This document shows, one piece after another, positions 24,201-36,770 of a stretch of DNA of 36,770 bases (the stretch's first letter is position 1; every line of letters begins with the position of its first letter). The position numbers and the translations under genes are program-made. The notes beneath the pieces are model-generated. The model did no database searches. It had not been told where the DNA came from and saw only the letters and a list, made by a program, of their open reading frames with translations. Source of the DNA: a virus; the IMG/VR virus record IMGVR_UViG_3300009481_000003. One strand, written 5' to 3'.

Positions 24201-24206
24201 ATTTTT

Positions 24207-24598: not shown

Positions 24599-24928
24599 TT
24601 AAATCGATAAAGAAAATAGGTGTCTTAAATACGAGAGTGTCATCGGTTCATTACCTGTATTTCCTGGCGCTTTGTACATACTCGCATTTGGGTGCATTAT
24701 TGCTACCCCCGTTTTTATTGCTTCGCTGATTCTATCAAGTTTATTTTCCTTTAATTCGAGTTTATTTAATATTCCTTGTAGCTCGTTTTCTGTAATATTG
24801 CTTTCGCGATTGGCTCCTGCTTCGTCAATTTCATTTCTTTGCTCTTCAATTTCAAATCGTAATGCCAGTATCTCTTTAATTAATTCTTTTTTTGTTTTTT
24901 TTAAAAGCATTGCGCGATTTTCATTCAT
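24599..24928 (-). CDS. Hypothetical coiled-coil protein
   Basis: 109 aa with a charged heptad-like N-terminal two thirds. I recognise no family. Confidence 0.5.
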   Translation of the reverse strand: MNENRAMLLKKTKKELIKEILALRFEIEEQRNEIDEAGANRESNITENELQGILNKLELKENKLDRISEAIKTGVAIMHPNASMYKAPGNTGNEPMTLSYLRHLFSLSI

Positions 24929-25013
24929 TTGTTAATGCCCTTTGTTGGTAAATATATAATTTAGCCCGCTGTATCGTAATATGTAGTTTTATCTGTGTCG
25001 TCGAGAGCAATTG

Positions 25014-25421: not shown

Positions 25422-25423
25422 GC

Positions 25424-25834: not shown

Positions 25835-25837
25835 TTT

Positions 25838-26530
25838 TTAAAAATCCAGGCTATCGATTGTTTTCAAGGTCACTCGCCCATAATCTCGCTTTTTGCTCTG
25901 CTCTCGTCTGCCCCATTGTCGACAAGCGGCTTTCCAATCCTTCATTTTTGTTTTTCCAACGTGCCAGCCGTTGGACTCGTAATGATCAAAAAACTTTCCT
26001 GGGTCAATCCCGATTCCCTGCTCGCGCAGATATATTTTTATTTCGCTGGGCGTTGGCTTTACAAAAATTTTTTCTTTTTTTTCGTCGTTTGTTTTTTTTT
26101 CTTTTTTTATATATTTTTTTCTTTTTTTTATTTTATATAAAGATTCGGGTACCCGTTTGGGTACTGGTGTCGTTTTGGGTACTGGTGTCGTTTTGGGTAC
26201 TGGTGTCGTTTTGGGTACTGGTGTCGTTTTGGGTACTGGTGCCGCGTCGTTTTTGGCACTGGTTTTTGCCTGATTCTCCTCGATAATTAATCTGTATTCA
26301 TTAACCTTTCCCGCTGTTTTTTTTATCTGTATTAACTCGCTTTGCTCAAGCTCAGTAAGCGATTTTATAACCGCTTTTTTGTTCATCAGGGTGATTTTTG
26401 CTATCGAATCGATTCCGGGGAAACAAACATTATTTTTATTTGCTCGGTCTGCTAGATGCAATAGCACTAACTTTGACGAGTGCTTTATCCCTATTTGCGA
26501 CCACGCCCAATTAGTTAAAAAATGGCTCAT
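25838..26530 (-). CDS. Replication initiator (lambda O-like: N-terminal winged-HTH, repeat linker, C-terminal domain)
   Basis: The N-terminal VLLHLADRANKNNVCFPGIDSIAKITLMNKKAVIKSLTELEQSELI is an HTH_36-type replication-protein motif. The central part is (PVPKTT)x4-5 followed by a Lys-rich stretch. Start is ATG 26530 or TTG 26548. Confidence 0.65.
   Translation of the reverse strand: MSHFLTNWAWSQIGIKHSSKLVLLHLADRANKNNVCFPGIDSIAKITLMNKKAVIKSLTELEQSELIQIKKTAGKVNEYRLIIEENQAKTSAKNDAAPVPKTTPVPKTTPVPKTTPVPKTTPVPKRVPESLYKIKKRKKYIKKEKKTNDEKKEKIFVKPTPSEIKIYLREQGIGIDPGKFFDHYESNGWHVGKTKMKDWKAACRQWGRREQSKKRDYGRVTLKTIDSLDF
26062..26142. promoter_or_regulatory. AT-rich (T-tract) segment adjacent to the iterons: candidate DNA-unwinding element of the origin
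   Basis: About 80 bp that is almost exclusively A/T with long T runs, immediately downstream of the iterons in the direction of O-gene transcription, the same order as in lambda ori. Confidence 0.5.
26146..26241. repeat. Iteron-like array: four perfect 18-bp repeats GGGTACTGGTGTCGTTTT (26159..26230) flanked by degenerate copies, including the palindrome CGGGTACCCG
   Basis: Read directly from the sequence. In frame inside the O-like gene. Confidence 0.9.
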
Positions 26531-26585
26531 TAATAGCCATTTATGCAATTTAATAATATGTTTATTATTGCTTTAATATACATAG

Positions 26586-26810
26586 CTATACCCCCTCAAA
26601 TTTTGCACATATCCTATTACGCCCTCCAGACCCGCCCCAGAATAATCTACCTCCGAGCTGTTCATAAGCTCTTTTTAGAGCCTTTTTAGATGGTTTTTTA
26701 GCTCTATAATCATTATATTTTTTACACTGCCCAATACCCGCACCATCCCCTATTTGATCAGGTATAAAGTGGGCACATAATACACACCTTATAGCCTTAG
26801 TTTTCTCCAT
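26586..26810 (-). CDS. Hypothetical Cys-rich (zinc-ribbon-like) protein
   Basis: 74 aa. CVLC...GQC...IC spacing. No family named. Confidence 0.5.
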   Translation of the reverse strand: MEKTKAIRCVLCAHFIPDQIGDGAGIGQCKKYNDYRAKKPSKKALKRAYEQLGGRLFWGGSGGRNRICAKFEGV

Positions 26811-26934
26811 TCAGGTACATTATAGTCCATATATATAGATACTTTATCCAATAATATATATATACTGTAATAGATACTAATATTAATATAACAAGCGTTA
26901 ATATATTTCTTAAATCAGAGATTTTATCACTCAT
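26797..26934 (-). CDS. Possible 45-aa single-TM protein, not in the ORF track
   Basis: MSDKISDLRNILTLVILILVSITVYIYYWIKYLYIWTIMYLNGEN fills the AT-rich gap. Its ATG lies 5 nt after the HTH gene stop, and it overlaps the next gene by 14 nt. An AT-rich region can give chance ORFs. Confidence 0.3.
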   Translation of the reverse strand: MSDKISDLRNILTLVILILVSITVYIYYWIKYLYIWTIMYLNGEN

Positions 26935-26938
26935 TGAT

Positions 26939-27145
26939 TTATTCCAAATTATAGTCGGTATCAAATACCCCGCGTTTTATAGCGAGCTCCCGTATCGAAT
27001 AGGCCCGCTCATAATATGTGCTCCTATGTCGCCCAGTCCTTAATCTGCTAACTATTGATTGTGACGCACCAATTTCTGCGCCAATTTCTGCATCTGTCAT
27101 AATCTCATTAAGACGTGTAAGTGTTTTTTGTATATTTATACTCAT
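26939..27145 (-). CDS. Small HTH regulator (Cro/CI-class) at the head of the leftward operon
   Basis: 68 aa from ATG 27145 (MSINIQKTLTRLNEIMTDAEIGAEIGASQSIVSRLRTG...). The longer track ORF (to 27274) would cover three promoters and is rejected. Confidence 0.6.
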   Translation of the reverse strand: MSINIQKTLTRLNEIMTDAEIGAEIGASQSIVSRLRTGRHRSTYYERAYSIRELAIKRGVFDTDYNLE

Positions 27146-27154
27146 GATCGAGCA

Positions 27155-27183
27155 AATATAATTCGCGAACGTATTTTTGTCAA
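27155..27183 (-). promoter_or_regulatory. Leftward promoter PL-like: TTGACA-N17-TATATT
   Basis: -35 at 27178..27183 and -10 at 27155..27160 (minus strand). The ATG at 27145 is only 9 nt from the -10, which implies a (near-)leaderless mRNA. Confidence 0.6.
27161..27174. promoter_or_regulatory. Operator-like palindrome ATTCG-CGAA-CGTAT in the PL spacer
   Basis: One mismatch from ATACG-N4-CGTAT. Contains the perfect 8-mer TTCGCGAA. Confidence 0.45.
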
Positions 27184-27192
27184 TGCTTTTGT

Positions 27193-27222
27193 TTGACATC
27201 AAAAATAATAAAAATATATATT
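27193..27222 (+). promoter_or_regulatory. Rightward promoter 1: TTGACA-N18-TATATT
   Basis: -35 at 27193..27198, -10 at 27217..27222. Back-to-back with the leftward promoter, 9 bp between the -35 boxes. Confidence 0.5.
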
Positions 27223-27249
27223 GACTCCAGATATACGTTTGCGTATATT
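27221..27249 (+). promoter_or_regulatory. Rightward promoter 2: TTGACT-N17-TATATT
   Basis: -35 at 27221..27226, -10 at 27244..27249. An operator-like palindrome sits in the spacer. Confidence 0.6.
27233..27246. promoter_or_regulatory. Operator-like palindrome ATACG-TTTG-CGTAT in the PR2 spacer / -10
   Basis: Perfect 5-bp arms (7-bp arms if extended: ATATACG/CGTATAT). Its centre is 72 bp from the PL site. Confidence 0.5.
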
Positions 27250-27278
27250 GTGAGCCACTAGAGCAATAAATCAACTAT

Positions 27279-27318
27279 AAAAATCATGAAAAAATCATGA
27301 AAAAATCATGAAAAAATC
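27279..27318 (+). repeat. 11-bp tandem repeat ATGAAAAAATC x3 creating two MKKS mini-ORFs chained to the real start
   Basis: ATGs at 27286, 27297 and 27308. The first two read ATG AAA AAA TCA TGA, and each TGA overlaps the next ATG. Confidence 0.85.
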
Positions 27319-27547
27319 AATAAACAAAAAAGTTAAAGAGCTAAAAAATGGCTTGTATAAAATAATTTGGAAAAATCAAGGCGGAGAGTCTTTGGCAGCA
27401 ATCGGCAGAACTCCGTCAGGAGACGTATGGATTGCGCCTACAAACTGGGTTTGCGGCGCTGGAACGACCGGACATTTTAAAGACATTGAAAAAGTAATAC
27501 TAATCAAAGACATTGAACAAGTAATTCTGATAGAACATAAAGACTAG
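27308..27547 (+). CDS. Hypothetical early protein (first rightward gene)
   Basis: 79 aa. The C-terminus contains the duplicated nonapeptide KDIEKVILI/KDIEQVILI. Confidence 0.5.
   Translation: MKKSINKKVKELKNGLYKIIWKNQGGESLAAIGRTPSGDVWIAPTNWVCGAGTTGHFKDIEKVILIKDIEQVILIEHKD
27479..27532 (+). repeat. In-frame 27-bp tandem duplication (23 of 27 identical)
   Basis: AAAGACATTGAAAAAGTAATACTAATC / AAAGACATTGAACAAGTAATTCTGATA. Confidence 0.8.
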
Positions 27548-27592
27548 ATTTAACTTTATAGGCAATAAAAATGACAGAATTTATTGATTGTA

Positions 27593-27784
27593 ATGGCAAC
27601 AGATAATAAAACAAAAACTGTATACGTAAATTTACATGTTGATGAAAAACCAACTTGGGTTAAAGCGTCCGTGACATGGGAAGATGAGCGCTCTATGCGT
27701 GTAACGCCAATAGATGGCGACCCACTGCACTCTATACACATAGATAAAATAAATGGAAAAGGCGACCTGTACAGAGATGCCTAA
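27593..27784 (+). CDS. Hypothetical early protein
   Basis: 63 aa from ATG 27593 (the track start 27584 is TTG). No clear SD. Confidence 0.4.
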   Translation: MATDNKTKTVYVNLHVDEKPTWVKASVTWEDERSMRVTPIDGDPLHSIHIDKINGKGDLYRDA

Positions 27785-27810
27785 CGACCATGCTAAGCGG
27801 TGCGTTTTTT
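27785..27810 (+). terminator. Possible weak intrinsic terminator
   Basis: CGACC-loop-GGT(G)CG followed by TTTTTT (27805..27810). The stem is short and bulged. Confidence 0.35.
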
Positions 27811-27876
27811 GCAGAGGTTGTGGAACCCCAAAACCCACATTAACTGTAACTATTTTACTCATTTGATGTAAATAGC

Positions 27877-27905
27877 TTGACTAACTAAAACTATTATAGT
27901 ATTAT
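27877..27905 (+). promoter_or_regulatory. sigma70-type promoter TTGACT-N17-TATTAT
   Basis: Read directly from the sequence, 50 nt upstream of the 27955 ATG (SD GAAGAGGA). Confidence 0.55.
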
Positions 27906-27954
27906 ACGCACATGGACTGAGGGAATAACCCCAAAGCCTGAAGAGGAACAGAAA

Positions 27955-28254
27955 ATGAAAACTGAATATAAAGCAACTTTCGTAACATTAACTAAAAATG
28001 TTGACGGTGATGAAAACTCTTATGAAGCTACTGTATCAGTAAATAACGAATTTGCTGTGCAATGTTCGGGAAATGAAGAGGAATCATTATTTTTAGGTAT
28101 AGCTCACCCATCTGAAAAATTTCATGAAGATAAAAGTAAGCAGTTATCAGCATATGAAAATTTAGATAGTGACGAAATTGAAAAATCGCTGGAAGAATGG
28201 GGTTTTGAAAATAATCTAGGATGGTTAGAAGATAACGCGGAAGTGGTTCTGTGA
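27955..28254 (+). CDS. Hypothetical strongly acidic early protein
   Basis: 99 aa, very rich in D/E, with a good SD. Confidence 0.6.
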   Translation: MKTEYKATFVTLTKNVDGDENSYEATVSVNNEFAVQCSGNEEESLFLGIAHPSEKFHEDKSKQLSAYENLDSDEIEKSLEEWGFENNLGWLEDNAEVVL

Positions 28255-28427
28255 AACCATCCGAAAAATGCAAAGCGGCAGGGCTGAAAAGCCTTGCTGA
28301 GCTTGCAGAAATTAGCGGTGCAAGCATACAAACTTTAAACAATTGGTTTAAGAATAAGCCGATTATTTTTGATTTAGTTTTACGCGGTGCGATCATGAAA
28401 AAACATTGTCAGTTGTTTGACTGCTAA
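28251..28427 (+). CDS. Small HTH protein with a lambda CII-like layout, not in the ORF track
   Basis: The GTG start overlaps the upstream stop (GTGA). 58 aa: VKPSEKCKAAGLKSLAELAEISGASIQTLNNWFKNKPIIFDLVLRGAIMKKHCQLFDC. Compare lambda CII GTEKTAEAVGVDKSQISRWKRDWIPKFSMLLAVLEWG. Confidence 0.45.
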   Translation: MKPSEKCKAAGLKSLAELAEISGASIQTLNNWFKNKPIIFDLVLRGAIMKKHCQLFDC

Positions 28428-28491
28428 CGATAAGCACCCAGGCGAACAAACCCCAAAATCAAGCTATTTTGTAATACAAAACGAGGCTGAA

Positions 28492-28644
28492 ATGAAAATA
28501 ACTCACAAATTAAGGCAAGATAACTCCCACGTTTATCTGTTTAAACAAAACAAAATCGTCTTTATATCCTCAGACAAAAACAAAGACATTGCTTTCAATC
28601 GCGGCTGGAATCTCATAATGCAATCGATAAAGAACAAAATTTAA
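28492..28644 (+). CDS. Hypothetical small basic protein
   Basis: 50 aa from ATG 28492, with GAGG 6 nt upstream. The track start 28417 is a TTG extension. Confidence 0.4.
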   Translation: MKITHKLRQDNSHVYLFKQNKIVFISSDKNKDIAFNRGWNLIMQSIKNKI

Positions 28645-28649
28645 TAATT

Positions 28650-28785
28650 CGTGGTCTGGTGAAGCTGGTCTATTGCCAAAGTCTACAAAGCCAGCAGTGA
28701 GCTACGGGGAGTTCGCGATACCTCCTTGTCCCTAGGGGGCTCACCGGTTGGCTCACGTCACGAGCCATTTGTTATGAGCCTGGAG
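28650..28785 (+). other. GC-rich, non-coding, highly self-complementary element upstream of bet (candidate structured RNA / leader)
   Basis: No ORF in any frame. Nested complementary segments include GCTGG/CCAGC, GTGAGC vs two GCTCAC copies, GGCTC-ACGTCAC-GAGCC and GGCTCA/TGAGCC. The SD GGAG (28782..28785) abuts the last helix. Confidence 0.4.
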
Positions 28786-28791
28786 TAAGTA

Positions 28792-29613
28792 ATGACCGTA
28801 TTTTTAGACACAGAAAAGGACACGCAAACCATGACTAATAAAACAGCAGTACAAAAAAAAGCCTCAGAAAACAACTTATTAGATAATTTAGCGAATAAAG
28901 CTAATCTCGATCCACAAATATTTAAGCAAACATTGATGGCTACAGTAATGCCCTCAAAAACCGTTGTAACAGACGAGCAATTCACTGCTTTTTTGATGGT
29001 TGCGAATAAATACAATTTAGATCCGATGACTAAAGAGATTTATGCATTTCCATCAAAAAAAGGCGGAATCCAGCCCATCGTGTCGATAGATGGATGGATA
29101 AAATTGATCAATACTAATCCAAATTACAATGGGATAGAGTATATAGACCATAAAAACCAAAATGATGAGCTAACTGCAATCACGTGCAAAATCCACCGAA
29201 AAGATCATGATTATGCGACAGAAATCACGGAATATTTGTCAGAATGTTCTCGATCAAACGAGACCTGGAAGCAATGGCCCGCGCGAATGTTAAGGCATAA
29301 AGCGACTATACAAGCCGCACGTTACGCTTTTGGATTTAGCGGCATATTAGATCTGGACGAGGCGCAGAGAGCACAAGCTGTAGACGAGCATCAAGATGCA
29401 AATATTTATGATGCGAGCGAATACAAGACGGTGCAGAAACCTCTATACCCAGAATCGAAATTTAAAGAAAATCAGACAGCCTGGAGAGAGTCATTTACAA
29501 AAGGAAAAACGGCTGAATCATTAATATTAGCGATCAACTCAAAATATCAGCTATCAGCGGATCAAGAAAAAGCAATACTTGAGCTTGAGACGACTAAAGA
29601 ATTAAACGCATAG
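28792..29613 (+). CDS. bet: Single-strand annealing recombinase, lambda Red-beta (Bet) homologue
   Basis: FLMVANKYNLDPMTKEIYAFPSKKGGIQPIVSIDGW...WPARMLRHKATIQAARYAFGFSGILDLDEA aligns closely with lambda Bet (LLIVANQYGLNPWTKEIYAFPDKQNGIVPVVGVDGW...HPKRMLRHKAMIQCARLAFGFAGIYDKDEA). Confidence 0.9.
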   Translation: MTVFLDTEKDTQTMTNKTAVQKKASENNLLDNLANKANLDPQIFKQTLMATVMPSKTVVTDEQFTAFLMVANKYNLDPMTKEIYAFPSKKGGIQPIVSIDGWIKLINTNPNYNGIEYIDHKNQNDELTAITCKIHRKDHDYATEITEYLSECSRSNETWKQWPARMLRHKATIQAARYAFGFSGILDLDEAQRAQAVDEHQDANIYDASEYKTVQKPLYPESKFKENQTAWRESFTKGKTAESLILAINSKYQLSADQEKAILELETTKELNA

Positions 29614-29623
29614 GACGCAGAAA

Positions 29624-31156
29624 ATGAACATAATAAAACTTGAAATAGGCGGCGCAGAATGGCTGAAAAAAAACAGCGCAAGTGAAGCCGCCGCAATGTT
29701 GGGTATCTCTAAATATACAACTCGATCCGAATTGCTTAGATATAAAGCAACTGGAATAAAAAAGGAAGTCTCTCCGGAAACACAAAAATTATTTGAGCGC
29801 GGGCATTTGGCTGAGAAAATGGCGCGGGCTTTAATAGAAGACTATATAAACGATGATTTATATGTCTATACGGGCGAAACAGAAGTAGACGGTTTAACGC
29901 TATCAGCGAGTTTTGATGGGATTACTGAGAAACAATTAATAATATTTGAGCACAAGCTTTTAAACAATGATCTGCGCATAGCTATGCAATCAGGATGCAT
30001 CCCCGCTGAATATCATCCCCAGCTCGAACAGCAATTAATAGTATCTGATGCTAACGAGGTACTTTTTGTAGCATCAAATTGTATAACTAGTCTCGATGAC
30101 GAGCATTACATTATACCTTACTCAAGCGACCCTGATCTAAGGAGCGATATTATTGCTGGGTGGAAACAATTTAATATCGATTTGAAAAAACTTAATGCCG
30201 ATTTTGAAAAAAATGGCTTACCAGAACCCGAAGAAATTATAGAAAAAAAACGGCCCAGAACACTTCCATTGCTGAGCATTGAGATATCGGGCCAGGTATC
30301 TAGTACAAATTTAGATACTTATAATAATCGACTTGTGGAGATACTGGATAATATTAACACAGAATTAAATACTGACGATGATTTTGCTCAAGCAGAAGCT
30401 GATATTAAATTTTGCAATGAGTCAAAAAAACAGTTAGATCATTGCAAAAATTTTGCACTAAGTCAGGTTGAGGACATCTTTCTTTTGTTTCAACAATGCG
30501 ATTTTTTGAAAAACATGATAACAGACAAGGGCACATTATTAACACGCCAGGTTAAAGCTAAAAAACAAGACATAAAAGAACGAATTATTTTTGACTCTAA
30601 CCTCTTATTTAAGAGGTACTTAGACGAAATAAAACGTGATTTAGATGGGCATCAAATAAAAATGAATTGTGACCCCATACAGATATTTTCGGACGCAATA
30701 AAAAACAAACGAAGCAGATCCACAATGCAAGCATCCGTTGATGCTGTATTAGCTAATTTAAAAATTACGGCATCATATAAATTCGATTCAGCAAAAATAA
30801 ACTTAGATTATTATAACGATAATGACTATCACAAAAATTATAAGTTTTTATTTGGAGACCTCACCGATTTATTAGCTTATGATCTTGATAATTTTAAATC
30901 AATACTACAATCACGCGTCAATTCACACCAAAAGCTCGTATCTGAAAATGAACAACAACAAGTTTATAAGCCACCAAAAAAAGAAAAAGTAATAGAAGAG
31001 TATATAACAATATCAAAAAGCCTATACAAACGTCTATGTGATATAGAAATAGAGTATAACGATATGATTAAGATGGGTCTTAAAAAATCCGATTTTTATG
31101 AAAATTATTGCGAAAAAATTATCAATATAACAAAACAAGAGGGAACATATTTATGA
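29624..31156 (+). CDS. YqaJ/lambda-Exo-family exonuclease domain fused to a ~300-aa Lys/Asn-rich C-terminal extension
   Basis: N-terminal SASEAAAMLGISKYTTRSELL...ERGHLAEKMA...SASFDGI...IFEHKLL...YHPQLEQQLIV fits the YqaJ PD-(D/E)XK motifs. I recognise nothing in the remaining ~300 aa. Confidence 0.7.
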   Translation: MNIIKLEIGGAEWLKKNSASEAAAMLGISKYTTRSELLRYKATGIKKEVSPETQKLFERGHLAEKMARALIEDYINDDLYVYTGETEVDGLTLSASFDGITEKQLIIFEHKLLNNDLRIAMQSGCIPAEYHPQLEQQLIVSDANEVLFVASNCITSLDDEHYIIPYSSDPDLRSDIIAGWKQFNIDLKKLNADFEKNGLPEPEEIIEKKRPRTLPLLSIEISGQVSSTNLDTYNNRLVEILDNINTELNTDDDFAQAEADIKFCNESKKQLDHCKNFALSQVEDIFLLFQQCDFLKNMITDKGTLLTRQVKAKKQDIKERIIFDSNLLFKRYLDEIKRDLDGHQIKMNCDPIQIFSDAIKNKRSRSTMQASVDAVLANLKITASYKFDSAKINLDYYNDNDYHKNYKFLFGDLTDLLAYDLDNFKSILQSRVNSHQKLVSENEQQQVYKPPKKEKVIEEYITISKSLYKRLCDIEIEYNDMIKMGLKKSDFYENYCEKIINITKQEGTYL

Positions 31157-31395
31157 TTAATAAAATAGAAGGAGTCGGCACTCAGTCACATTATGAGCAA
31201 TTAATAATACAGCCTATTGATTATATAGTAAGTAATAATCTAGGATATTTGGAAGGTAATATTATTAAATACATAAGTAGATACAAATTAAAAAATGGAA
31301 TTGAAGACTTAGAAAAAGCTAAACAATACATACAATGGTTAATTGATGTCGAAAAAACACGTGATGAACCAGACATTCATAAAAAGGAAACTTAA
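31153..31395 (+). CDS. DUF3310 protein
   Basis: SHYEQLIIQPIDYIVSNNLGYLEGNIIKYISRYKLKNGIEDLEKAKQYIQWLI is the DUF3310 signature. ATG 31153 forms an ATGA overlap with the upstream stop. Confidence 0.75.
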   Translation: MINKIEGVGTQSHYEQLIIQPIDYIVSNNLGYLEGNIIKYISRYKLKNGIEDLEKAKQYIQWLIDVEKTRDEPDIHKKET

Positions 31396-31397
31396 TT

Positions 31398-31847
31398 ATG
31401 AACGGCGTTAATAAGGCAATAATAGTCGGCGTCGTGGGCAGAGATCCGGAAGTTAGAGACATAGCAAACGGGGCGCTAGCTTGCAATATTAGTCTAGCAA
31501 CTAACGAGGCCTGGAAAGATAAAGCAACGGGCGAAAAAAAAGAGGCGACAGAATGGCATCGAGTCGTGTTTTATAACAAGCTCGCTGATATAGTTAACAA
31601 ATATGTCAGCAAGGGATCAAAATTGTACGTGGAAGGTAAATTAAAAACCCATAAATGGCAAGACAAAGAGGGCAACGACCGTTTCACAACGCAAATTATT
31701 GCTAATAATATGCAGCTTTTGGGCGACAAAAAACCTCAATCTGAAGCAGGCTGGGAACAATCTCAAAATGACTCGATAAAAACCGCCGACTCTACAAATA
31801 AAGCAAATACAACAACGGAGTATTTTGACGATGATATCCCTTTCTGA
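31398..31847 (+). CDS. ssb: Single-stranded DNA-binding protein
   Basis: MNGVNKAIIVGVVGRDPEVR...TEWHRVVFYNKLA... is an OB fold, and the protein has the canonical acidic tail DDDIPF. Confidence 0.9.
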   Translation: MNGVNKAIIVGVVGRDPEVRDIANGALACNISLATNEAWKDKATGEKKEATEWHRVVFYNKLADIVNKYVSKGSKLYVEGKLKTHKWQDKEGNDRFTTQIIANNMQLLGDKKPQSEAGWEQSQNDSIKTADSTNKANTTTEYFDDDIPF

Positions 31848-32082
31848 CAAAAAAAAATATGATTATCCTGAAGCGTGGCGAACAAGCGACGAAATCAAAT
31901 TTATTGATCAAATAGGTACAAAAGATAGAGAGTATCTAATACCTATGTCGAGACTTGAGGTATTAAGACTGTACAGACAAGCAATTAATCAACGTACAGA
32001 ATGGGACAATTTGAAGCGAAGCGAAATAAAAAGGTACGCATCAAAAGCAATTAAAGACGAGTTAGATATAACTTATGATTAA
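31831..32082 (+). CDS. Hypothetical protein
   Basis: 83 aa from ATG 31831. Contains an A9 run (31849..31857) encoding KKK. Confidence 0.45.
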   Translation: MISLSDKKKYDYPEAWRTSDEIKFIDQIGTKDREYLIPMSRLEVLRLYRQAINQRTEWDNLKRSEIKRYASKAIKDELDITYD

Positions 32083-32422
32083 TAAAACAGGCTTATATAC
32101 ATATAACGCAATTATAGAGAGCGTTTATGATGGAGACACAGTGACCGCATCAATAGATTTAGGTATGGGCGTTTGGAAGCGTGGCGAAAAGCTAAGGTTA
32201 GCGCATATAGACGCTCCCGAGGTCAAAGGATTAACTCGTGAGCAAGGCTTGGTATCAAGAGACTGGTTGCGCGGGGAAGTGCAGGGCAAACAAGTTATTA
32301 TCAAGACGATAAAGGACAAAAAAGGCAAGTATGGACGCTATTTAGCTGAGCTCTGGCTGGATGGATCTAATATTAATGATCGACTGGTTAAAAACGGATT
32401 TGCAATTTATAAAGATTATTAA
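32075..32422 (+). CDS. Staphylococcal-nuclease (SNase/thermonuclease)-like nuclease
   Basis: VYDGDTVTASIDLG...LRLAHIDAPEV...GKYGRYLAELWLDGSNINDRLVKNGFA are the SNase-fold motifs. Confidence 0.75.
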   Translation: MINKTGLYTYNAIIESVYDGDTVTASIDLGMGVWKRGEKLRLAHIDAPEVKGLTREQGLVSRDWLRGEVQGKQVIIKTIKDKKGKYGRYLAELWLDGSNINDRLVKNGFAIYKDY

Positions 32423-32482
32423 TTATTTTTATCATAACAAATGCAGGATCAAGTCAATTATAAATAATAATTCATAAATAAC

Positions 32483-32510
32483 TTGACAGCGTCTATGTGT
32501 ATGCTACAAT
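32483..32510 (+). promoter_or_regulatory. Strong sigma70 promoter TTGACA-N16-(TGc)TACAAT, cassette A
   Basis: ATAACTTGACAGCGTCTATGTGTATGCTACAATGTA. Near-identical module at 33428..33455. Confidence 0.7.
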
Positions 32511-32552
32511 GTAATTGAGTTTTAAAAAACTCTCTTAATTTTAAACTAGATA

Positions 32553-32570
32553 TGCACCCGTTGGGATGCA
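32553..32570 (+). promoter_or_regulatory. Conserved leader hairpin, cassette A
   Basis: TGCA-C-CC GTTG GG-A-TGCA, 1 nt after ACTAGAT and 13 nt before the ATG at 32584. Confidence 0.5.
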
Positions 32571-32583
32571 AAGCGAGATAAAA

Positions 32584-33420
32584 ATGTACAAATCAATCAC
32601 TGACATCGTAAAAATAGCTAGAGCCCACGGTCAAAACGGCGCACAAGCAAAGCGCACAAGGCAAGCAAGAGACCAGCGAAGAGCCGCAAACCTCACACCT
32701 TGTCTAAAGAGAAAAATCGACTTAGGGCCAGAAGCGGGAGCAAAAGCTTTTGATTACGCTACAGATCTATATCCGCGCCGAAAAAACTTTGAAGCACCAG
32801 AGTCTGTATCATCAAGGTGCGCTTTTGTTGTAGTCCGCAAAGATAGCTACAGCACCTACATCGGTAATTGTAGATATCAACGACACAGTTACCCTATTTT
32901 AGTTAGCTCTAATTTCGCCCACACAAAAACACAATGTTTTTGGTTCTGCGGTGAATCAAGCGGCAAGATAAAAGCCCCACGCGGCTATGAATGGAGTCAT
33001 GACAATCTAGGGCTTAAGCTGATTGCAAAATCTGACGGAGTAGACTATCACCCCAACAGCGACGACTTAGCATCGGGCGCACGTCATATAGCCCGATTGA
33101 TCCGGGACAAGCGCGAAACCATAAAAATCGAAAATCGGAAAATAAAAGCTAAGGCAAAATATGAAAAAGGCGCGTATTTATGCATGCAAGATAGCCTCAA
33201 TGTAGGCAACTGTCGGGTAGGAACTGTAGGCTTTGCCAAACAAAATAAGCTATCAATTAAAAAACATTATCCTGTCAAATTAATGCGCAAATTGCTTGAA
33301 AAGCTTAGCAGCACTGAAGAAAGATGTGCTTTAGAACGTGCGATTAATTACGCGACAAGTCGCCACAAATACGAGGTCGAAAGCGCTAAATTTTGCAAAT
33401 TAAGCCATCATTACGGTTAA
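32584..33420 (+). CDS. Hypothetical protein (278 aa), basic N-terminus, Cys-containing C-terminal region
   Basis: Start placed at ATG 32584 (MYKSITDIV) by homology of the leader with cassette B. The track start 32566 lies inside the hairpin. I recognise no family. Confidence 0.55.
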   Translation: MYKSITDIVKIARAHGQNGAQAKRTRQARDQRRAANLTPCLKRKIDLGPEAGAKAFDYATDLYPRRKNFEAPESVSSRCAFVVVRKDSYSTYIGNCRYQRHSYPILVSSNFAHTKTQCFWFCGESSGKIKAPRGYEWSHDNLGLKLIAKSDGVDYHPNSDDLASGARHIARLIRDKRETIKIENRKIKAKAKYEKGAYLCMQDSLNVGNCRVGTVGFAKQNKLSIKKHYPVKLMRKLLEKLSSTEERCALERAINYATSRHKYEVESAKFCKLSHHYG

Positions 33421-33427
33421 ATATAAC

Positions 33428-33455
33428 TTGACAGATTCTAAATGTATGCTATAAT
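33428..33455 (+). promoter_or_regulatory. Strong sigma70 promoter TTGACA-N16-(TGc)TATAAT, cassette B
   Basis: ATAACTTGACAGATTCTAAATGTATGCTATAATGTA. Confidence 0.7.
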
Positions 33456-33501
33456 GTATGTAAGTTAAATAAATAACTTGCATACATTAATCAACTAGAT
33501 C

Positions 33502-33519
33502 AGCGACCACTGGGACGCT
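33502..33519 (+). promoter_or_regulatory. Conserved leader hairpin, cassette B
   Basis: AGCG-A-CC ACTG GG-A-CGCT, 1 nt after ACTAGAT and 17 nt before the ATG at 33537. Confidence 0.5.
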
Positions 33520-33536
33520 AAAAAGAGGTAAATAAA

Positions 33537-33959
33537 ATGGCAACATACACGATCAAACATACTTGTGGCCACGTCGTACACCATAATCTAACAGGTAAAA
33601 TTGACGGACGAACTAAAAGAGCTGATTATCTAACCAAAAAAATTTGTATCGATTGTTACAAAGCCAAAAAAACCGCAGACGCAAAAGCCAAGAATGAAAA
33701 AAACAACCTGCCAAATCTGACAGGATCGCCGAAACAAATAGCATGGGCTGAGAGCATACGCGCTAACGTAGCTATAGATGCTAACGAGCTGAAGGGTATG
33801 TGCGACACTCACATAGACACTATGGATAAAACAGTAAGGACTAAAGTTTTATCACTAATAAATGATCTTATGGCTAACGATAGTGCCACATTTTGGATAA
33901 ACAGCAGATATGAATCTCTTGGCACAGAGAACTGGCTCAAAAAAGAACTTTCAAAATAA
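33537..33959 (+). CDS. Hypothetical protein with Cys/His-rich N-terminus and LPNLTGSPKQIAWAESIR motif
   Basis: 140 aa, SD AGAGG. HTCGHVVHH...CIDC suggests metal binding. No family named. Confidence 0.6.
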   Translation: MATYTIKHTCGHVVHHNLTGKIDGRTKRADYLTKKICIDCYKAKKTADAKAKNEKNNLPNLTGSPKQIAWAESIRANVAIDANELKGMCDTHIDTMDKTVRTKVLSLINDLMANDSATFWINSRYESLGTENWLKKELSK

Positions 33960-34000
33960 CCCGATAAAGCCAGGGACGGCTCCTACAGGACTAATACATC

Positions 34001-34423
34001 ATGGCACAAACACAAAAAACCATTAGATTCAACAAACTATCAGATGAAATTATCCGTGCCATCTGCCCCAACGACGAGGTTAACTATAATTTTGCGGTTA
34101 ACCAGTTAATTTTAAGATATAAAGTGATGTGCTTAGAATTAATGAAAGGCCATTTTTCTGAGGATGAAATTAGCGCTTTAGCCAAAGCTTATGAAGGATA
34201 CAATTTTAATTCGGACATCGAACTTGAAGCCAAAGCTTTTAATTATAACGTCTCTAAATCATCACTACATGACGACATCAGTAATCAAAAGACTGAGGCT
34301 TTTTTGGAGAAATGCGGCGCAATGTCAACCCCTCAGATTATCGCGACATTCCATGCTATACATTGTTTTTTAACCCCACCTGAAGCAGAGAGTAATGGCA
34401 ATAATAAAGAGGTATCAAAATGA
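34001..34423 (+). CDS. Hypothetical protein
   Basis: 140 aa ORF, co-oriented, with ATGA coupling to the next gene. Confidence 0.5.
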   Translation: MAQTQKTIRFNKLSDEIIRAICPNDEVNYNFAVNQLILRYKVMCLELMKGHFSEDEISALAKAYEGYNFNSDIELEAKAFNYNVSKSSLHDDISNQKTEAFLEKCGAMSTPQIIATFHAIHCFLTPPEAESNGNNKEVSK

Positions 34424-34704
34424 GCATTAATAGAAAAGTGAAAGAAACCAATTATGAAGATGTGTTAGATAATGTTCTATCGAAAAAATTACCGAATAGA
34501 ACCTCCCCCGCAGGGTGCAGAGTTAGTGGTTTAACTGCTTATGGCCCTGTCTTTTCAAAAGGCACATGGACTGAAAATCATAAGTCAGCTCTAAATTGGT
34601 GCAAAGAAAATAACGCCAAAAACAAAAGCTGGGTTTTTAAAGTCAGTCAAAATCATCGTTGCGAAGAAGCAGGAGTGATAGGTTCTTTTTGTGGCCGACC
34701 ATAA
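34420..34704 (+). CDS. Hypothetical protein
   Basis: 94 aa, ATGA overlap with the upstream gene. Confidence 0.5.
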   Translation: MSINRKVKETNYEDVLDNVLSKKLPNRTSPAGCRVSGLTAYGPVFSKGTWTENHKSALNWCKENNAKNKSWVFKVSQNHRCEEAGVIGSFCGRP

Positions 34705-34762
34705 AAAGTTAGTTTAATCTCAAAGCGAAATTAGGCGACAACTTTAAATTGAGGAATAAATT

Positions 34763-35023
34763 ATGAACAATAAATGGGATATTGAAGAGCTTGCTTACAG
34801 AGCGATCGGAAAGACTGACGAAGAAGCTGAAAAAGAAATAAATAACGGAGATATTGAACAAGCAGTTTACGATAAATACGAATGTAGCTTTGAAACATAC
34901 TGCTCCATTGTTAATGACCTACTCAAGTTCACCCCGCTTGTTAGCAGCCCTTTAACGGGCAAAAATTATCATGCTTTTGTTGATACTGAACAACATAGAG
35001 TAATAGTTAAGTTAGATGTATAA
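34763..35023 (+). CDS. Hypothetical acidic protein
   Basis: 86 aa, SD GAGGA 8 nt upstream. Confidence 0.5.
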   Translation: MNNKWDIEELAYRAIGKTDEEAEKEINNGDIEQAVYDKYECSFETYCSIVNDLLKFTPLVSSPLTGKNYHAFVDTEQHRVIVKLDV

Positions 35024-35044
35024 CAAGGCAAATTCAGCGGATAT

Positions 35045-35242
35045 ATGAAAAAAAGTGACATTGTCATGACCCCTGATTGGGTGGCAAAAATGATGCTGGA
35101 GGTTGTGGAGTATGGCGGCGTAAAAGAAATGCTGGTGGTAGCGCCGGGATCAAGGCTTAAGTTCTCCATCGGGTTTTGCATTGCTGCTGTTCATTTTGAG
35201 CGTGGTTATGAGGGCCCAATGAAGATTGGATTTTCAACATAA
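35045..35242 (+). CDS. Hypothetical 65-aa protein; N-terminus faintly resembles the start of an adenine DNA methyltransferase (possible gene remnant)
   Basis: DIVMTPDWVAKMML...MLVVAPGSRLKF vs the usual ..TP..iv..M... vlePs.G.G.F layout. The match is degenerate and truncated. Confidence 0.3.
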   Translation: MKKSDIVMTPDWVAKMMLEVVEYGGVKEMLVVAPGSRLKFSIGFCIAAVHFERGYEGPMKIGFST

Positions 35243-35278
35243 CGCTGAAGGTAACTATATGAAATGCATAAGGTTATT

Positions 35279-35299
35279 TTGGCGGAAAATTTTCGCCAA
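35279..35299. terminator. Palindromic hairpin at the convergence point of the two arms (possible bidirectional 3'-end element)
   Basis: TTGGCG(G)AAAATTTTCGCCAA. There is no U-tract on either strand after the stem, so this is not a classic intrinsic terminator. Confidence 0.3.
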
Positions 35300-35326
35300 C
35301 CTATGCAGATAAAATGTTTAGTTAAT

Positions 35327-35812
35327 CTAAGTCACGACAATGCGCGGGCTATCTGATAATTCTAGCGACAATCGAGGGTCGATCATATCAAGCCGCACAT
35401 AAAAAATTCCTTTTTCAGAAATCGAAAAAGACAGAGCGCCCGCGCCATTTGTTAGCGATAAAGTCAAAAACTTGGATTGTTTGCCATCGCTGGCGCGAAT
35501 TACTGGCACAGTGTAAGTATTATTAATTGATAAATTAGGGCCTCCATTCGGGAGACTATATAATACAGCGGCGTTTATTATTTCGCCTACTGCCGCTGCG
35601 CTCTTGTCAAGAGATATTGTAAAACCATCCCGCGCTGAAGCCCGCTGATTTGGGGGCGTAAATACCGCGCCATCATACGACCAGCCGATTTCTGCGGTGT
35701 CATTTTGTACAGCAATATAGCCTCTGCTACTTGCTATCCTCGTCGCCATCGCATCATTTCTAGCATCTATTTTATTTATTACAAGGCCGTCATTTATTAT
35801 TAAATAATTCAT
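35327..35812 (-). CDS. Hypothetical fibre-module protein (last gene of the late operon)
   Basis: 161 aa. The N-terminal INDGLVINKI...IGWSYDGAVFTPP motif is common in fibre-associated phage proteins. Confidence 0.5.
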   Translation of the reverse strand: MNYLIINDGLVINKIDARNDAMATRIASSRGYIAVQNDTAEIGWSYDGAVFTPPNQRASARDGFTISLDKSAAAVGEIINAAVLYSLPNGGPNLSINNTYTVPVIRASDGKQSKFLTLSLTNGAGALSFSISEKGIFYVRLDMIDPRLSLELSDSPRIVVT

Positions 35813-35818
35813 TGTTTT

Positions 35819-36625
35819 TTATTCCCACCACACTATTTTGCAATAACCGCTTCCGCCCGCGCCGCCTGTTTTGGTCGTCGAATTGGATTCTCCCGCGCCG
35901 CCGCCCCCGCCGCCCGTATTAGCTGCAGCATCATCAGCATTTGCTTCATATGATCCATTCCCGCCGCCGTGTGATCCGAGGCCTATTCCCACAAGATTTC
36001 CAGAGCACCCCCCGCCGCCCCCGCCGCCATATCCATCAACCCCTGCACCACCATTTCCTCCCGAACCCGTGGCCGCAGTTGTTGCAAGTCCGCCCGCGCC
36101 GCCCGATTGCGCGGACTGCAAATAGCTGCTAAATCTCTGTGATGTTGCTGATGAAGTAGCATTACCCCCGTTGCCACGAGCTCCCCCGCCGCCGCCTGCG
36201 GCTAAGTAATTGTTAGCACCTGATTTTACGCCGCATCCTCCGCTTGTGCCTGCATTTGTTAAATTTTGCGTTTGAAGCGCCAAACCACCACCGCCGCCCC
36301 GCGCAGTTAACGATCCTCCGCCGGTTATCGTGGAGTCCCCGCCATTCGCACCTGCTGCGCCATCTGTCGCTCCGCCACTTCCGCCCGCGCCTATGGTTAT
36401 TGTCAGGTCGTCAGTAATCGGTATGATCCCGTCTTGTATGCACCCGCCACCGCCACCGCCACCGCAGCTATAAAGGCTGGTCGTATCTGATGCACCGCCG
36501 CCGCCACCGCCGCCTACCAAAAATGCTTGGACTGCAAGCACATTTTGAGGCCGGATCCAAGTTCCTGAGCTCGTAAATATTTGAGCTCTAGGCCGCTTGC
36601 CTGGGTCATTTGTTGCTGCGCCCAT
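35819..36625 (-). CDS. Glycine-rich domain protein (phage fibre/host-recognition associated)
   Basis: IFTSSGTWIRPQNVLAVQAFLVGGGGGGG... has multiple G5-G7 tracts and ends GGAGGSGYCKIVWW, the typical glycine-rich-domain layout. Confidence 0.65.
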   Translation of the reverse strand: MGAATNDPGKRPRAQIFTSSGTWIRPQNVLAVQAFLVGGGGGGGASDTTSLYSCGGGGGGGCIQDGIIPITDDLTITIGAGGSGGATDGAAGANGGDSTITGGGSLTARGGGGGLALQTQNLTNAGTSGGCGVKSGANNYLAAGGGGGARGNGGNATSSATSQRFSSYLQSAQSGGAGGLATTAATGSGGNGGAGVDGYGGGGGGGCSGNLVGIGLGSHGGGNGSYEANADDAAANTGGGGGGAGESNSTTKTGGAGGSGYCKIVWWE

Positions 36626-36770
36626 TTATATAGTGCTCCGTATCTCGCCCCAGACATTAACAGCAACGCCAGTAGCGGACGCTTGAGCAACAACATTGTC
36701 ATCACTATCCAATACTAAGCCCGAGAATTGCACGAAGCTATTAGCTGCTAGCTCGTAATCATAGATTAAA
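36626..36770 (-). CDS. C-terminal part of the junction-spanning 104-aa ORF (see 1..293)
   Basis: The same frame as 1..293 carried through the repeat: ...AVNVWGEIRSTI, stop TAA 36626..36628. Confidence 0.6.
   Translation of the reverse strand, partial: LIYDYELAANSFVQFSGLVLDSDDNVVAQASATGVAVNVWGEIRSTI
36648..36770. repeat. Terminal direct repeat, copy 2 (identical to 1..123)
   Basis: See copy 1. Confidence 0.9.

What the first reader, a model, noticed from the sequence alone, without database searches (positions are those of the whole stretch)
32473..33959. Two moron-like cassettes share a duplicated consensus promoter and a leader hairpin that shows compensatory base changes
The same ~110-bp control module sits upstream of the ORFs starting at 32584 and 33537. 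It consists of ATAACTTGACAG (-35 TTGACA), a 16-nt spacer ending ATGTATGC (TG-extended), and -10 TACAAT or TATAAT followed by GTA. A hairpin or palindrome follows at the predicted +1 (GAGTTT-TAAA-AAACTC at 32517..32532; GTATGTAAGTTA-AATAAA-TAACTTGCATAC at 33456..33485). Then come the block ACTAGAT, one nt, and an 18-nt hairpin of identical geometry: TGCA-C-CC GTTG GG-A-TGCA (32553..32570) versus AGCG-A-CC ACTG GG-A-CGCT (33502..33519). Two of the four outer pairs differ by double compensatory changes (T-A to A-T, A-T to G-C). The CC/GG pairs, the internal mismatch opposite A and the NNTG loop are kept. That argues for selection on structure just upstream of the SD and start codon. Together with the good TTGACT-N17-TATTAT promoter at 27877..27905, these are the only internal promoters I found in the otherwise promoter-poor rightward operon, and they are the closest to consensus. 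I cannot place either protein (278 aa and 140 aa) in a family. A private strong promoter plus a private translational operator is the architecture expected for genes expressed outside the normal early programme, such as anti-defence, exclusion or host-takeover functions. The function is inference.
Basis: partly seen in the sequence, partly recalled or inferred. Interest (0 to 1): 0.72.

Follow-up and report, generated by a model that had tools for sequence, protein, structure and literature searches.

The report
Conserved phage promoter-leader cassette, duplicated
Two neighbouring phage genes each carry a copy of the same strong promoter plus a two-hairpin mRNA leader, and the same cassette turns up in at least six other uncultivated phages, each time in front of a different unrelated gene and upstream of one conserved gene, which marks a swappable accessory-gene slot with its own control element.

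Summary
Two about 110-nt modules (32478-32583, 33423-33536) share a consensus sigma-70 promoter with a TG-extended -10 and a structured leader. With only these two copies, stability (z about -2) and covariation were weak evidence.

A covariance model then found the whole module in six to eight related metagenomic phage contigs (E 1e-9 to 5e-21). Each copy precedes a different, unrelated cargo gene. Each lies upstream of a conserved 135-154-aa gene, the homolog of window ORF 34001-34423.

- Hairpin 1 starts at the 7th base after the -10 in every complete copy, and 3 of its 6 pairs covary.
- Hairpin 2 is GC(A/G)-NYC-N3-GRG-A-(U/C)GC. It keeps an invariant bulged A and a variable 3-nt loop, and ends 14-18 nt before the AUG.
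- In hairpin 2, 41 of 42 cells pair, against 21-38% in slid controls.

The best reading is a portable promoter plus 5'UTR cassette driving a hypervariable cargo slot, present twice in tandem here. Hairpin 2 is a probable trans-factor operator, but that step is inferred. Anti-defence function is unproven: P140 shares only a helix motif with AcrIF23. The closest analogue is acr-aca operon control, but no Aca-like protein was detected.

The parts
32478..32583 (+). Module A: full promoter plus leader cassette upstream of P278
   Evidence: Repeat families D5 and D15. BLAST self-hit. CM R2 match 32470-32586, 119 bits.
32483..32510 (+). Promoter A: -35 TTGACA (32483-32488), 16-nt spacer, TG 32502-32503, -10 TACAAT (32505-32510). 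Predicted +1 at G32517.
   Evidence: 11/12 matches, TG present. The start site is predicted from spacing, not measured.
32517..32532 (+). Hairpin 1 of A, at the 5' end of the transcript: GAGUUU-UAAA-AAACUC
   Evidence: Fold. Same position in all six complete copies, with 3 of 6 pairs covarying.
32545..32551 (+). ACTAGAT box of A
   Evidence: Conserved as ACT(T)AGA(T/A) in the window copies, L040, L041, L042 and L130; reduced to ACT in L043 and L044.
32553..32570 (+). Hairpin 2 of A: UGCA-CCC-GUU-GGG-A-UGCA with a bulged A. Identical in L040.
32573..32586 (+). A-rich ribosome binding region of P278: GCGAGA 32573-32578 and AUG 32584
   Evidence: Read from the sequence. Aligned with GGAG or AGAGG in the other copies.
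32584..33420 (+). Cargo gene P278 (278 aa). Unannotated family with a confident but unmatched fold. GC 44-46% against 35-40% for its neighbours.
33423..33536 (+). Module B: full promoter plus leader cassette upstream of P140. It starts 3 nt after the P278 stop codon.
   Evidence: CM R2 match 33415-33539, 115.5 bits.
33428..33455 (+). Promoter B: -35 TTGACA (33428-33433), 16-nt spacer, TG 33447-33448, -10 TATAAT (33450-33455). Predicted +1 at A33462.
   Evidence: 12/12 matches, TG present.
33462..33479 (+). Hairpin 1 of B in the RNA: AAGUUA-AAUAAA-UAACUU. The DNA palindrome extends to 33456-33485.
33494..33500 (+). ACTAGAT box of B
33502..33519 (+). Hairpin 2 of B: AGCG-ACC-ACU-GGG-A-CGCU, with a bulged A and one A-G mismatch
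33524..33539 (+). Ribosome binding region of P140: AGAGG 33524-33528 and AUG 33537
   Evidence: Read from the sequence.
33537..33959 (+). Cargo gene P140 (140 aa). Member of phrog_16123. N-terminal CxH...CxxC zinc-ribbon-like hairpins followed by a helical domain carrying LTGSxKQIAWAExIR.
34001..34423 (+). Conserved 'anchor' gene (140 aa, invariant N-terminus MAQTQKTIRFN). It is the only protein shared by all loci that carry the cassette.
   Evidence: No family assigned.
34420..35242 (+). Three further small ORFs (94, 86 and 65 aa), probably co-transcribed. No terminator separates them from promoter B until about 34685-34708.
   Evidence: Co-transcription is inferred.

Best explanation
The region holds two tandem copies of a portable expression cassette conserved in a small group of uncultivated phages.

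Each cassette has four parts:
1. A sigma-70 promoter with a 16-nt spacer and a TG-extended -10, which host RNA polymerase should use without any phage factor.
2. A 6-8-bp hairpin that begins at the predicted first transcribed base. Its most likely role is to protect the 5' end of the mRNA from RppH and RNase E-dependent decay.
3. An AU-rich linker with an ACU(AGAU) box.
4. A 16-18-nt hairpin of fixed geometry: a 3-4-bp lower stem, an invariant bulged A, a 3-bp upper stem and a 3-nt loop of free sequence. It ends 14-18 nt before the start codon, followed by an A-rich Shine-Dalgarno region.

The cassette drives a hypervariable cargo position. In every phage a different, unrelated gene follows it, and a conserved 135-154-aa gene (here 34001-34423) lies just downstream. 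In this phage the slot holds two cargo genes, P278 and P140, each with its own cassette. The P278 coding sequence is bracketed exactly by the two copies. That layout is the product expected when a [cassette-gene] unit recombines into a resident cassette.

Hairpin 2 keeps its shape, its bulge and its distance to the ribosome binding site while its sequence drifts. It is most likely the binding site of a trans-acting factor that sets translation or mRNA fate.

Shown here: the homology, conservation and covariation of the cassette, its constant spacing, the cargo variability and the conserved neighbour.

Inferred: the transcription start, the stabilising role of hairpin 1, the operator role of hairpin 2, the recombination origin of the duplication, and any function of the cargo.
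For: - Promoters.
- Paralogy of the two copies.
- Homologous cassettes: CM R1 hits L040 at 35.8 bits, E 3e-6. CM R2 hits L040, L041, L042, L043, L044, L130, L131 and L132 at 39-131 bits.
- Sequences were read directly.
- Hairpin 2: 97.6% of cells paired; AU/GC and UA/CG exchanges; 3 of 500 shuffles reach the observed score; slid controls pair at 21-38%.
- Hairpin 1: 30 of 30 cells paired, 3 of 6 pairs with double changes, and RNAalifold recovers both hairpins. L043 has an unrelated stem at the same place.
- Constant geometry: hairpin 2 starts at +37 to +42 and ends 14-18 nt before the AUG; leaders are 67-75 nt long.
- Cargo proteins are unrelated to one another apart from the L041/L042 76/74-aa second-gene pair, and the genes that directly follow each module are all unrelated.
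- The anchor gene is 44-49% identical across loci, with 11 invariant N-terminal residues.
- P278 is bracketed exactly by the repeats and is GC-richer than its neighbours.
- Terminator-like hairpins follow the cargo in relatives.
- Independent lineages carrying P278 or P140 homologs also place them behind their own duplicated promoter or leader modules: L003, L033, L034, L038, L039, L004 and L036.
Against: - There are no transcript data, so the start site and the RNA nature of the hairpins are predictions.
- The isolated hairpins are only marginally more stable than shuffled sequence (z about -2). Hairpin 1 is AU-rich and weak (-1.8 to -6.7 kcal/mol).
- The alignment used for the pair counts was fitted to the model. 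The copies fall into few independent lineages: A with L040; B; L041, L042 and L130; L043 with L044.
- No candidate RNA-binding protein was identified. The anchor protein matches no family.
- In this window the cargo genes lack terminators, and read-through from the upstream early operon is not excluded.
- The recombination origin of the duplication rests on the layout alone.
Confidence: 0.65

Rival explanations
1. The locus is an anti-defence locus of the acr-aca type. The strong promoter fires on entry, the variable cargo genes (including P140) are inhibitors of host immunity, and the conserved anchor protein is the Aca-like autoregulator. It would bind the promoter region and/or hairpin 2 to shut expression down.
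For: - The architecture matches published acr-aca control. In that system Aca1 and Aca2 bind inverted repeats at the promoter and about 20-nt 5'UTR hairpins that have a lower stem, unpaired bases and an upper stem, and that end about 20 nt before the start codon. The motifs recur at neighbouring operons (PMC13551039).
- Variable cargo with a conserved downstream gene is the classic acr-aca layout.
- The P140 family profile matches AcrIF23 residues 45-109 (E 2.4e-5) and, weakly, AcrIE7.
Against: - The AcrIF23 match is one helix motif lying outside its Cas2/3-binding loop, residues 17-28. Foldseek gives E = 1 and TM 0.3.
- The anchor has no HTH or RHH signal in Pfam, NCBIfam, PHROGs or PDB sequences. 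hhalign against Arc and CopG is negative.
- No inverted repeat is conserved at a fixed position in the promoter.
- In L040 a terminator separates the cargo from the anchor.
- The 80 other P140-family loci lack the cassette.
Confidence: 0.2
2. The hairpins are purely cis-acting. Hairpin 1 stabilises the mRNA, and hairpin 2 only insulates the ribosome binding site from upstream sequence, acting as a standby-site scaffold. No trans-acting regulator is involved.
For: - The leaders keep the Shine-Dalgarno sequence and the AUG in an unpaired A-rich tract in the predicted folds.
- No regulator was found.
- The loop sequence of hairpin 2 is free: GUU, ACU, AAU, ACC, AUU.
Against: A mere insulator would not need an invariant bulged A, invariant G-C and C-G pairs, a fixed 3-nt loop length and fixed stem lengths in all seven copies while hairpin 1 changes freely.
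Confidence: 0.3
3. The palindromes act at the DNA level as operators for a dimeric repressor that sits over +1 and over the leader.
For: Palindrome B is 12+12 bp and spans the predicted start site. Promoters of P278 homologs in L034 and L039 carry palindromes in their spacers.
Against: - Half-site spacing changes between copies: loops of 4, 6, 4, 7, 7 and about 5 nt for hairpin 1.
- Half-site sequences covary rather than stay constant.
- Arms that exchange sequence while keeping complementarity, with loops of free length, suggest a folded strand rather than a DNA site read by a protein. A T-G mismatch in the arm of palindrome B would be a G-U pair only in plus-strand RNA.
Confidence: 0.07
4. 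The box plus hairpin is a nut-like site (boxA plus boxB) that loads an antitermination factor on polymerase leaving the promoter.
For: A linear box followed by a short hairpin about 35-40 nt downstream of a strong promoter recalls lambda pL-nutL (established knowledge).
Against: - There is no boxA consensus, and the box is lost in L043 and L044.
- The loop is a free 3-nt sequence, not a GNRA-like pentaloop.
- No N-like protein was found.
- The hairpin is tied to the ribosome binding site at a constant 14-18 nt, not to a downstream terminator.
- The phage's Q-like gene acts on the other strand.
Confidence: 0.03

Closest known systems
acr-aca operon control: strong acr promoter with Aca operators, plus the Aca1/Aca2-bound 5'UTR hairpins (PMC13551039 and works cited there)
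   Same: - Strong early promoter.
- A short two-tier hairpin in the 5'UTR ending about 15-20 nt before the first start codon, with covariation.
- The same control motif repeated at adjacent transcription units.
- Variable small cargo genes followed by a conserved gene.
   Different: - No known Aca family or HTH/RHH domain was detected in the conserved gene.
- No validated Acr is present; P140 shares only a helix motif with AcrIF23.
- The hairpin sequence is unrelated to known motifs and is not in Rfam.
- Here the lower stem is the more conserved and the upper stem covaries.
- No conserved inverted repeat lies in the promoter.
Morons of lambdoid phages (promoter-gene-terminator units inserted between conserved genes; established knowledge)
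   Same: - Own promoter.
- Cargo differs between relatives at one locus.
- Mild compositional difference for P278.
- Terminator-like hairpin after the cargo in L040, L041 and L042.
   Different: - Here the promoter and leader are themselves a conserved, homologous element shared by all insertions.
- There are no terminators in this window.
- No evidence of lysogeny.
PeSL (promoter-early stem-loop) cassettes of T4-type phages (PMC2839356, PMC4122927)
   Same: Short repeated regulatory cassettes containing an early sigma-70 promoter and a stem-loop. They flank variable accessory genes and offer homology for modular gene shuffling.
   Different: - PeSLs are composite terminator/promoter motifs. 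Here both stem-loops lie downstream of the promoter inside the 5'UTR and are not terminators.
- There are one or two copies per genome rather than dozens.
5'-terminal stabilising stem-loops such as the one in ompA mRNA (established knowledge)
   Same: A hairpin beginning at or within a few bases of the first transcribed nucleotide.
   Different: The stabilising role was not tested here, and the stems are short and AU-rich.
Coat-protein operator hairpins of RNA phages (MS2, Q-beta, PP7) and other bulged-A protein-binding hairpins (established knowledge)
   Same: A short stem interrupted by a single bulged A, with a small loop, next to a ribosome binding site. The stem sequence is free as long as it pairs.
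   Different: - The bulge is on the 3' side.
- The loop sequence is not conserved.
- The hairpin does not contain the start codon.
- This is a dsDNA phage and no binding protein is known.

Membership tests
Sigma-70 promoter with extended -10 | -35 TTGACA-like hexamer, 16-18-nt spacer, TGn, -10 TATAAT-like hexamer | tested here: met
   12/12 and 11/12 matches, each with a TG. The layout is kept in all complete homologs, whose -35 is weaker but whose TGn -10 is retained. Activity was not measured.
Moron | Own promoter upstream of the gene | tested here: met
   (prediction only).
Moron | Own terminator downstream of the gene | tested here: not met
   No plus-strand terminator follows 33420 or 33959. 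One is present after the cargo in L040, L041 and L042.
Moron | Gene present in one phage and absent from relatives at the same locus | tested here: met
   The cargo gene directly after the module differs in all seven loci, while the anchor gene is conserved.
Moron | Expressed from the prophage | not testable with these tools
   No integrase or repressor-immunity module was recognised.
acr-aca operon | Contains a gene homologous to a validated anti-CRISPR | tested here: inconclusive
   The profile matches AcrIF23 residues 45-109 only (E 2.4e-5). Foldseek gives E = 1. The functional loop 17-28 is not covered.
acr-aca operon | Conserved aca gene with an HTH or RHH DNA-binding domain in the operon | tested here: not met
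   The conserved anchor gene has no detectable HTH or RHH domain.
acr-aca operon | Inverted-repeat operator overlapping the promoter | tested here: inconclusive
   Only short 4-bp arms around the TGC of the extended -10 were seen, and their register shifts between copies (read by eye).
acr-aca operon | Conserved, covarying 5'UTR hairpin near the start codon | tested here: met
PeSL cassette | Composite terminator/promoter motif: a stem-loop that serves as terminator joined to an early promoter | tested here: not met
   Both stem-loops lie downstream of the -10 and lack T-runs.
PeSL cassette | Repeated cassettes bracketing insertions, deletions and replacements of accessory genes | tested here: met
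   P278 is bracketed exactly by two copies. Cargo is replaced between relatives.
Lambda-type nut site | boxA consensus, boxB hairpin with a GNRA-like pentaloop, and an N-like protein | tested here: not met
   No N-like ORF was found.
Any Rfam family | Match to a curated covariance model | tested here: not met
   No hit at gathering threshold in the window. Nothing relevant at E up to 10 in 32400-33600.
CsrA/RsmA binding site | GGA in the loop of a short hairpin and a second GGA at the Shine-Dalgarno sequence | tested here: not met
   The GGGA or GAGA lies in the 3' arm and bulge, not in the loop. GGA is replaced by GAGA in four copies.

The most novel reading that the evidence does not exclude
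The bulged-A hairpin is the RNA operator of the conserved anchor protein (the 34001-34423 family). That protein would be a new regulator family, without a recognisable HTH or RHH domain, playing the Aca role. The cassette plus anchor would then mark a previously unrecognised anti-defence or host-takeover cargo slot. The covariance model could serve as a beacon to harvest new counter-defence genes such as the P278, P140 and L040-L044 cargo families.
Probability: 0.15. Interest if true: 0.75.

Novelty: new variant of a known kind. Interest (0 to 1): 0.55.

Why it matters
Conserved control elements next to variable cargo are how anti-CRISPR and other counter-defence genes have been discovered in bulk. 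Here the conserved element is a complete promoter plus a two-hairpin leader. It has real covariation, is absent from Rfam, and is tied to an unannotated conserved gene. It therefore gives three things:

- A searchable covariance model.
- A defined set of at least eight unrelated candidate accessory genes, including two sizeable unannotated families (P278-like with about 470 remote homologs; phrog_16123 with at least 241 IMG/VR relatives).
- A simple testable hypothesis about post-transcriptional control in a dsDNA phage.

If it is only a stabilising leader, it is still a compact natural high-expression cassette and a clear example of cassette-mediated gene shuffling outside the T4 group.

Tried and rejected
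**Exact-pattern scans for the module.** These returned only unrelated hits.
- Promoter pattern in IMG/VR: one unrelated contig, L001.
- Leader pattern in IMG/VR: no hit.
- Composite pattern in IMG/VR: ten chance hits.
- Promoter pattern in metagenomes: 13 unrelated consensus promoters.
- Leader pattern in genomes: four chance hits, two of them inside glmS-like coding sequence.

**Similarity searches against reference collections.** Megablast and blastn against INPHARED phages, and tblastn of P278 against phages and plasmids, found nothing.

**Relatives sought through other genes.** Searching through YqaJ or P140 alone gave nothing useful. The route that worked was the downstream gene 34001-34423.

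**Statistics on the two copies alone.** These have no power or are borderline.

**Hypotheses considered and dropped.**
- Minus-strand terminator. It was flagged by the scan, but the tail is weak in copy B and there is no leftward transcript to stop.
- Anti-Shine-Dalgarno pairing, which is not conserved between A and B.
- CsrA site.
- nut site.
- Q/qut site. The Q-like gene serves the other strand.
- Operators shared with the main control region 26900-27950; no shared repeats were found.

**Cargo function.**
- Pfam, PHROGs, NCBIfam, PADLOC, PDB sequence and Foldseek searches gave no assignment for P278.
- For P140 they gave only the AcrIF23 motif.

**RHH reading of the anchor N-terminus.** This was a by-eye idea. 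HMM searches and hhalign against Arc and CopG do not support it.
Full report
**What the window is.** It is a nearly complete 36.8-kb phage genome from a metagenome. An identical copy exists in a second sample.
- The minus strand carries a regulator, an O-like replication gene, a resolvase, an endolysin, a Q-like gene, HNH, terminase, portal, capsid and Mu-type tail and baseplate genes.
- The plus strand carries an early operon from about 27955: RecT, a YqaJ exonuclease, DUF3310, SSB and an SNase. The region in question follows these.
- No integrase was recognised.

**The observation.**
- The two promoters are the best-scoring sigma-70 sites with a TG extension in 17000-36770.
- The two modules are paralogs: BLAST 72.7% over 110 nt, E 5.5e-7, and repeat families D5 and D15.
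- The promoter part is 86% identical and the transcribed part only 63%.
- There is no third copy in the window.
- Hairpins 32553-32570 and 33502-33519 have the geometry and the two double changes described.

**Strength of the evidence from two copies alone.** It was weak.
- Thermodynamic z-scores were -1.9 and -2.0 for the isolated hairpins and -1.1 to -1.5 for the leaders.
- In simulations that mutate leader A at random to the observed divergence, a shared helix with at least two compensated pairs appears in 5-19% of trials.
- Adding the 5' hairpin, which also covaries (GAGUUU/AAACUC against AAGUUA/UAACUU), lowers this to 0.2-0.9%. That figure rests on a hand alignment.

**Search for homologs: the dead ends.**
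- Exact-pattern scans of IMG/VR, JGI metagenomes and GTDB genomes returned only unrelated consensus promoters or chance matches.
- P278 and P140 have no close relatives.

**Search for homologs: the route that worked.** The next gene downstream, ORF 34001-34423, has five IMG/VR relatives at 44-49% identity. All share an invariant N-terminus, MAQTQKTIRFN.
- A covariance model of box plus hairpin 2 built from the two window copies (R1) hit L040 at 35.8 bits (E 3e-6), and also L041 and L042, a few hundred bases upstream of that gene.
- Reading those sequences showed the entire module.
- A full-length model (R2) then recovered complete or contig-truncated copies in L040, L041, L042, L043 and L044. 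It also recovered copies in three further contigs reached through cluster members of the anchor protein: L130, L131 and L132.
- None of the 80 other loci encoding P140-family proteins has the module.

**Anatomy across copies.**
- Promoter: the -35 is TTGACA, GTGACA, TAGACA or TTGATA. The spacer is 16 nt and ends in (A/T)GATGC or GTATGC, so TGn is always present. The -10 is TACAAT, TATAAT, TATACT, TATGCT or TACACT.
- Hairpin 1: in all six copies examined (window A and B, L040, L041, L042, L043), six bases separate the -10 from hairpin 1, so it starts at the canonical +1. It has 6-8 pairs and loops of 4-7 nt. Three of its six common pairs show changes on both sides and none is mismatched. L043 has a completely different stem at the same place.
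- Linker: AU-rich, carrying ACU(U)AGA(U/A), which is reduced to ACU in L043 and L044.
- Hairpin 2: GC(A/G)-(C/A)(C/U)C-NNN-G(G/A)G-A-(U/C)GC. Of 42 cells, 41 pair. Two pairs show double changes (A-U/G-C, and C-G/U-A at three copies against four). The bulged A is invariant. The 3-nt loop is free in sequence. Sliding the partners drops pairing to 21-38%, and 3 of 500 shuffles reach the observed score.
- Spacing: hairpin 2 begins at +37 to +42 and ends 14-18 nt before the AUG. Leaders are 67-75 nt long.
- RNAalifold recovers exactly these two hairpins on the structural alignment.
- Caveats: the alignments are structure-guided, and the copies fall into about four independent lineages.

**The locus.** Each cassette precedes a different protein: P278, P140, and proteins of 78, 146, 119, 75, 105 and 132 aa.
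- Only the second genes of L041 and L042 (76 and 74 aa) are related to one another.
- The anchor gene follows after zero or one further gene.
- In L040, L041 and L042 a terminator-like hairpin follows the cargo.
- In the window, the P278 coding sequence lies exactly between the two cassettes and is GC-richer than its surroundings. This layout is what a [cassette-gene] unit recombining into a resident cassette would produce.
- Independent phage lineages that carry P278 or P140 homologs also put them behind their own, unrelated, duplicated promoter or leader modules. These are L003, L033 (four hairpin leaders), L034 and L039 (promoters with spacer palindromes), L038 (two 140-nt leaders that keep two hairpins through changes), and L004 with L036. 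The habit is general even though the sequences are lineage-specific.

**The proteins.**
- P140 belongs to phrog_16123. It has a zinc-ribbon-like N-terminus (C10, H12, C37, C40) and a helical domain (pLDDT 87).
- The P140 family profile matches AcrIF23 only through the LTGxxxQxxWAExIRA helix. That helix lies outside AcrIF23's Cas2/3-binding loop, and the folds do not superpose convincingly.
- P278 has 473 remote homologs and a confident model (pLDDT 89). It has no Pfam, PDB or informative BFVD match.
- The anchor protein has no family. A by-eye RHH reading of its N-terminus is not supported by hhalign.

**Interpretation.** The element is a conserved, portable promoter plus 5'UTR cassette serving a hypervariable cargo slot.
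- Host sigma-70 polymerase should fire it without phage factors. This follows from the consensus match and is inferred.
- A hairpin at the very 5' end is the classic arrangement for protecting an mRNA from 5'-end-dependent decay. This rests on established knowledge and was not tested here.
- Hairpin 2 keeps its bulge, stem lengths, loop length and distance to the ribosome binding site while its sequence drifts. That is the signature of a shape-specific ligand site, so I favour a trans-factor operator over a passive insulator. No ligand is identified.
- The closest described system is acr-aca control, in which Aca1 and Aca2 bind both promoter DNA and two-tier 5'UTR hairpins, and the motifs recur at neighbouring counter-defence operons (PMC13551039). 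Membership fails on the defining Aca domain and on a validated Acr.
- PeSL cassettes share the shuffling logic but are terminator/promoter composites.
- Morons share the comparative definition, but not the conserved shared leader or, in this window, the terminator.

**Verdict.** The functional label (anti-defence, translational operator) remains inference. I rate it a new variant of a known kind, of moderate to good interest, mainly because it yields a new covarying cis-regulatory RNA motif and a ready handle on a set of unknown accessory genes.

Noticed in passing
window 27277-27322: Three tandem 11-nt repeats, AAAAATCATGA, sit at the start of ORF 27308-27547 in the divergent control region.
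   Followed up: no
window 26148-26243 (inside the minus-strand gene 25838-26548): Tandem 18-nt repeats GGTACTGGTGTCGTTTTG, encoding PVPKTT repeats, lie in the O-like replication initiator. They are probably iterons or the origin.
   Followed up: no
window 35819-36625 (minus strand): The glycine-rich tail-fibre-like gene has 57-61% GC, against about 38% for the rest of the genome.
   Followed up: no
window 33469-33480 and 32474-32485: The leader of module B contains a second exact copy of ATAAATAACTTG, the flank of the -35 of module A. It may be a remnant of a further promoter duplication.
   Followed up: partly
window 32566-32568: An in-frame ATG lies inside the 3' arm of hairpin 2 of module A and would extend P278 by six residues. 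It has no Shine-Dalgarno sequence and no counterpart in the other copies.
   Followed up: partly
window 23558-23977 (minus strand): A Q-like antiterminator gene (phrog_79, E 1.4e-7) is present. A late promoter with a qut-like site should therefore lie near 23440-23557.
   Followed up: no
L033 5600, 5962, 8540, 8845: An unrelated GC-rich phage carries four copies of CA(T)TTCAC-GCCCCGC-N3-GCGGGGC-TCAA, each a few tens of nt upstream of a start codon. One precedes a P278 homolog. The same contig encodes a CsrA homolog.
   Followed up: partly
L038 665-807 and 1085-1226: Two 140-nt leaders at 85% column identity each carry two hairpins that keep pairing through changes (GAAACAT/ATGTTTC against GAACCAT/ATGGTTC). 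They precede successive genes, one of them a P278 homolog.
   Followed up: partly
L024 (Ga0315282_10061496), minus strand, two copies 1041 nt apart: An unrelated contig has an identical consensus promoter plus a leader of more than 100 nt, duplicated. The extended consensus CTTGACAG...TATGCTATAATGTA recurs in many unrelated metagenomic contigs.
   Followed up: no
L130 2934-4023 (minus strand): In one relative, an N6/N4 methyltransferase and a Mu Com-type zinc-ribbon gene lie next to the anchor gene, an arrangement like com-mom.
   Followed up: no
L004 6001-7854 and L036 2765-4492: In another lineage the P140 homolog heads an operon with a 230-aa Glu/Arg-rich coiled-coil protein and a protein with a vWA-like DVSGSMDE motif (identified by eye only). 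A conserved GC hairpin lies in its leader.
   Followed up: partly
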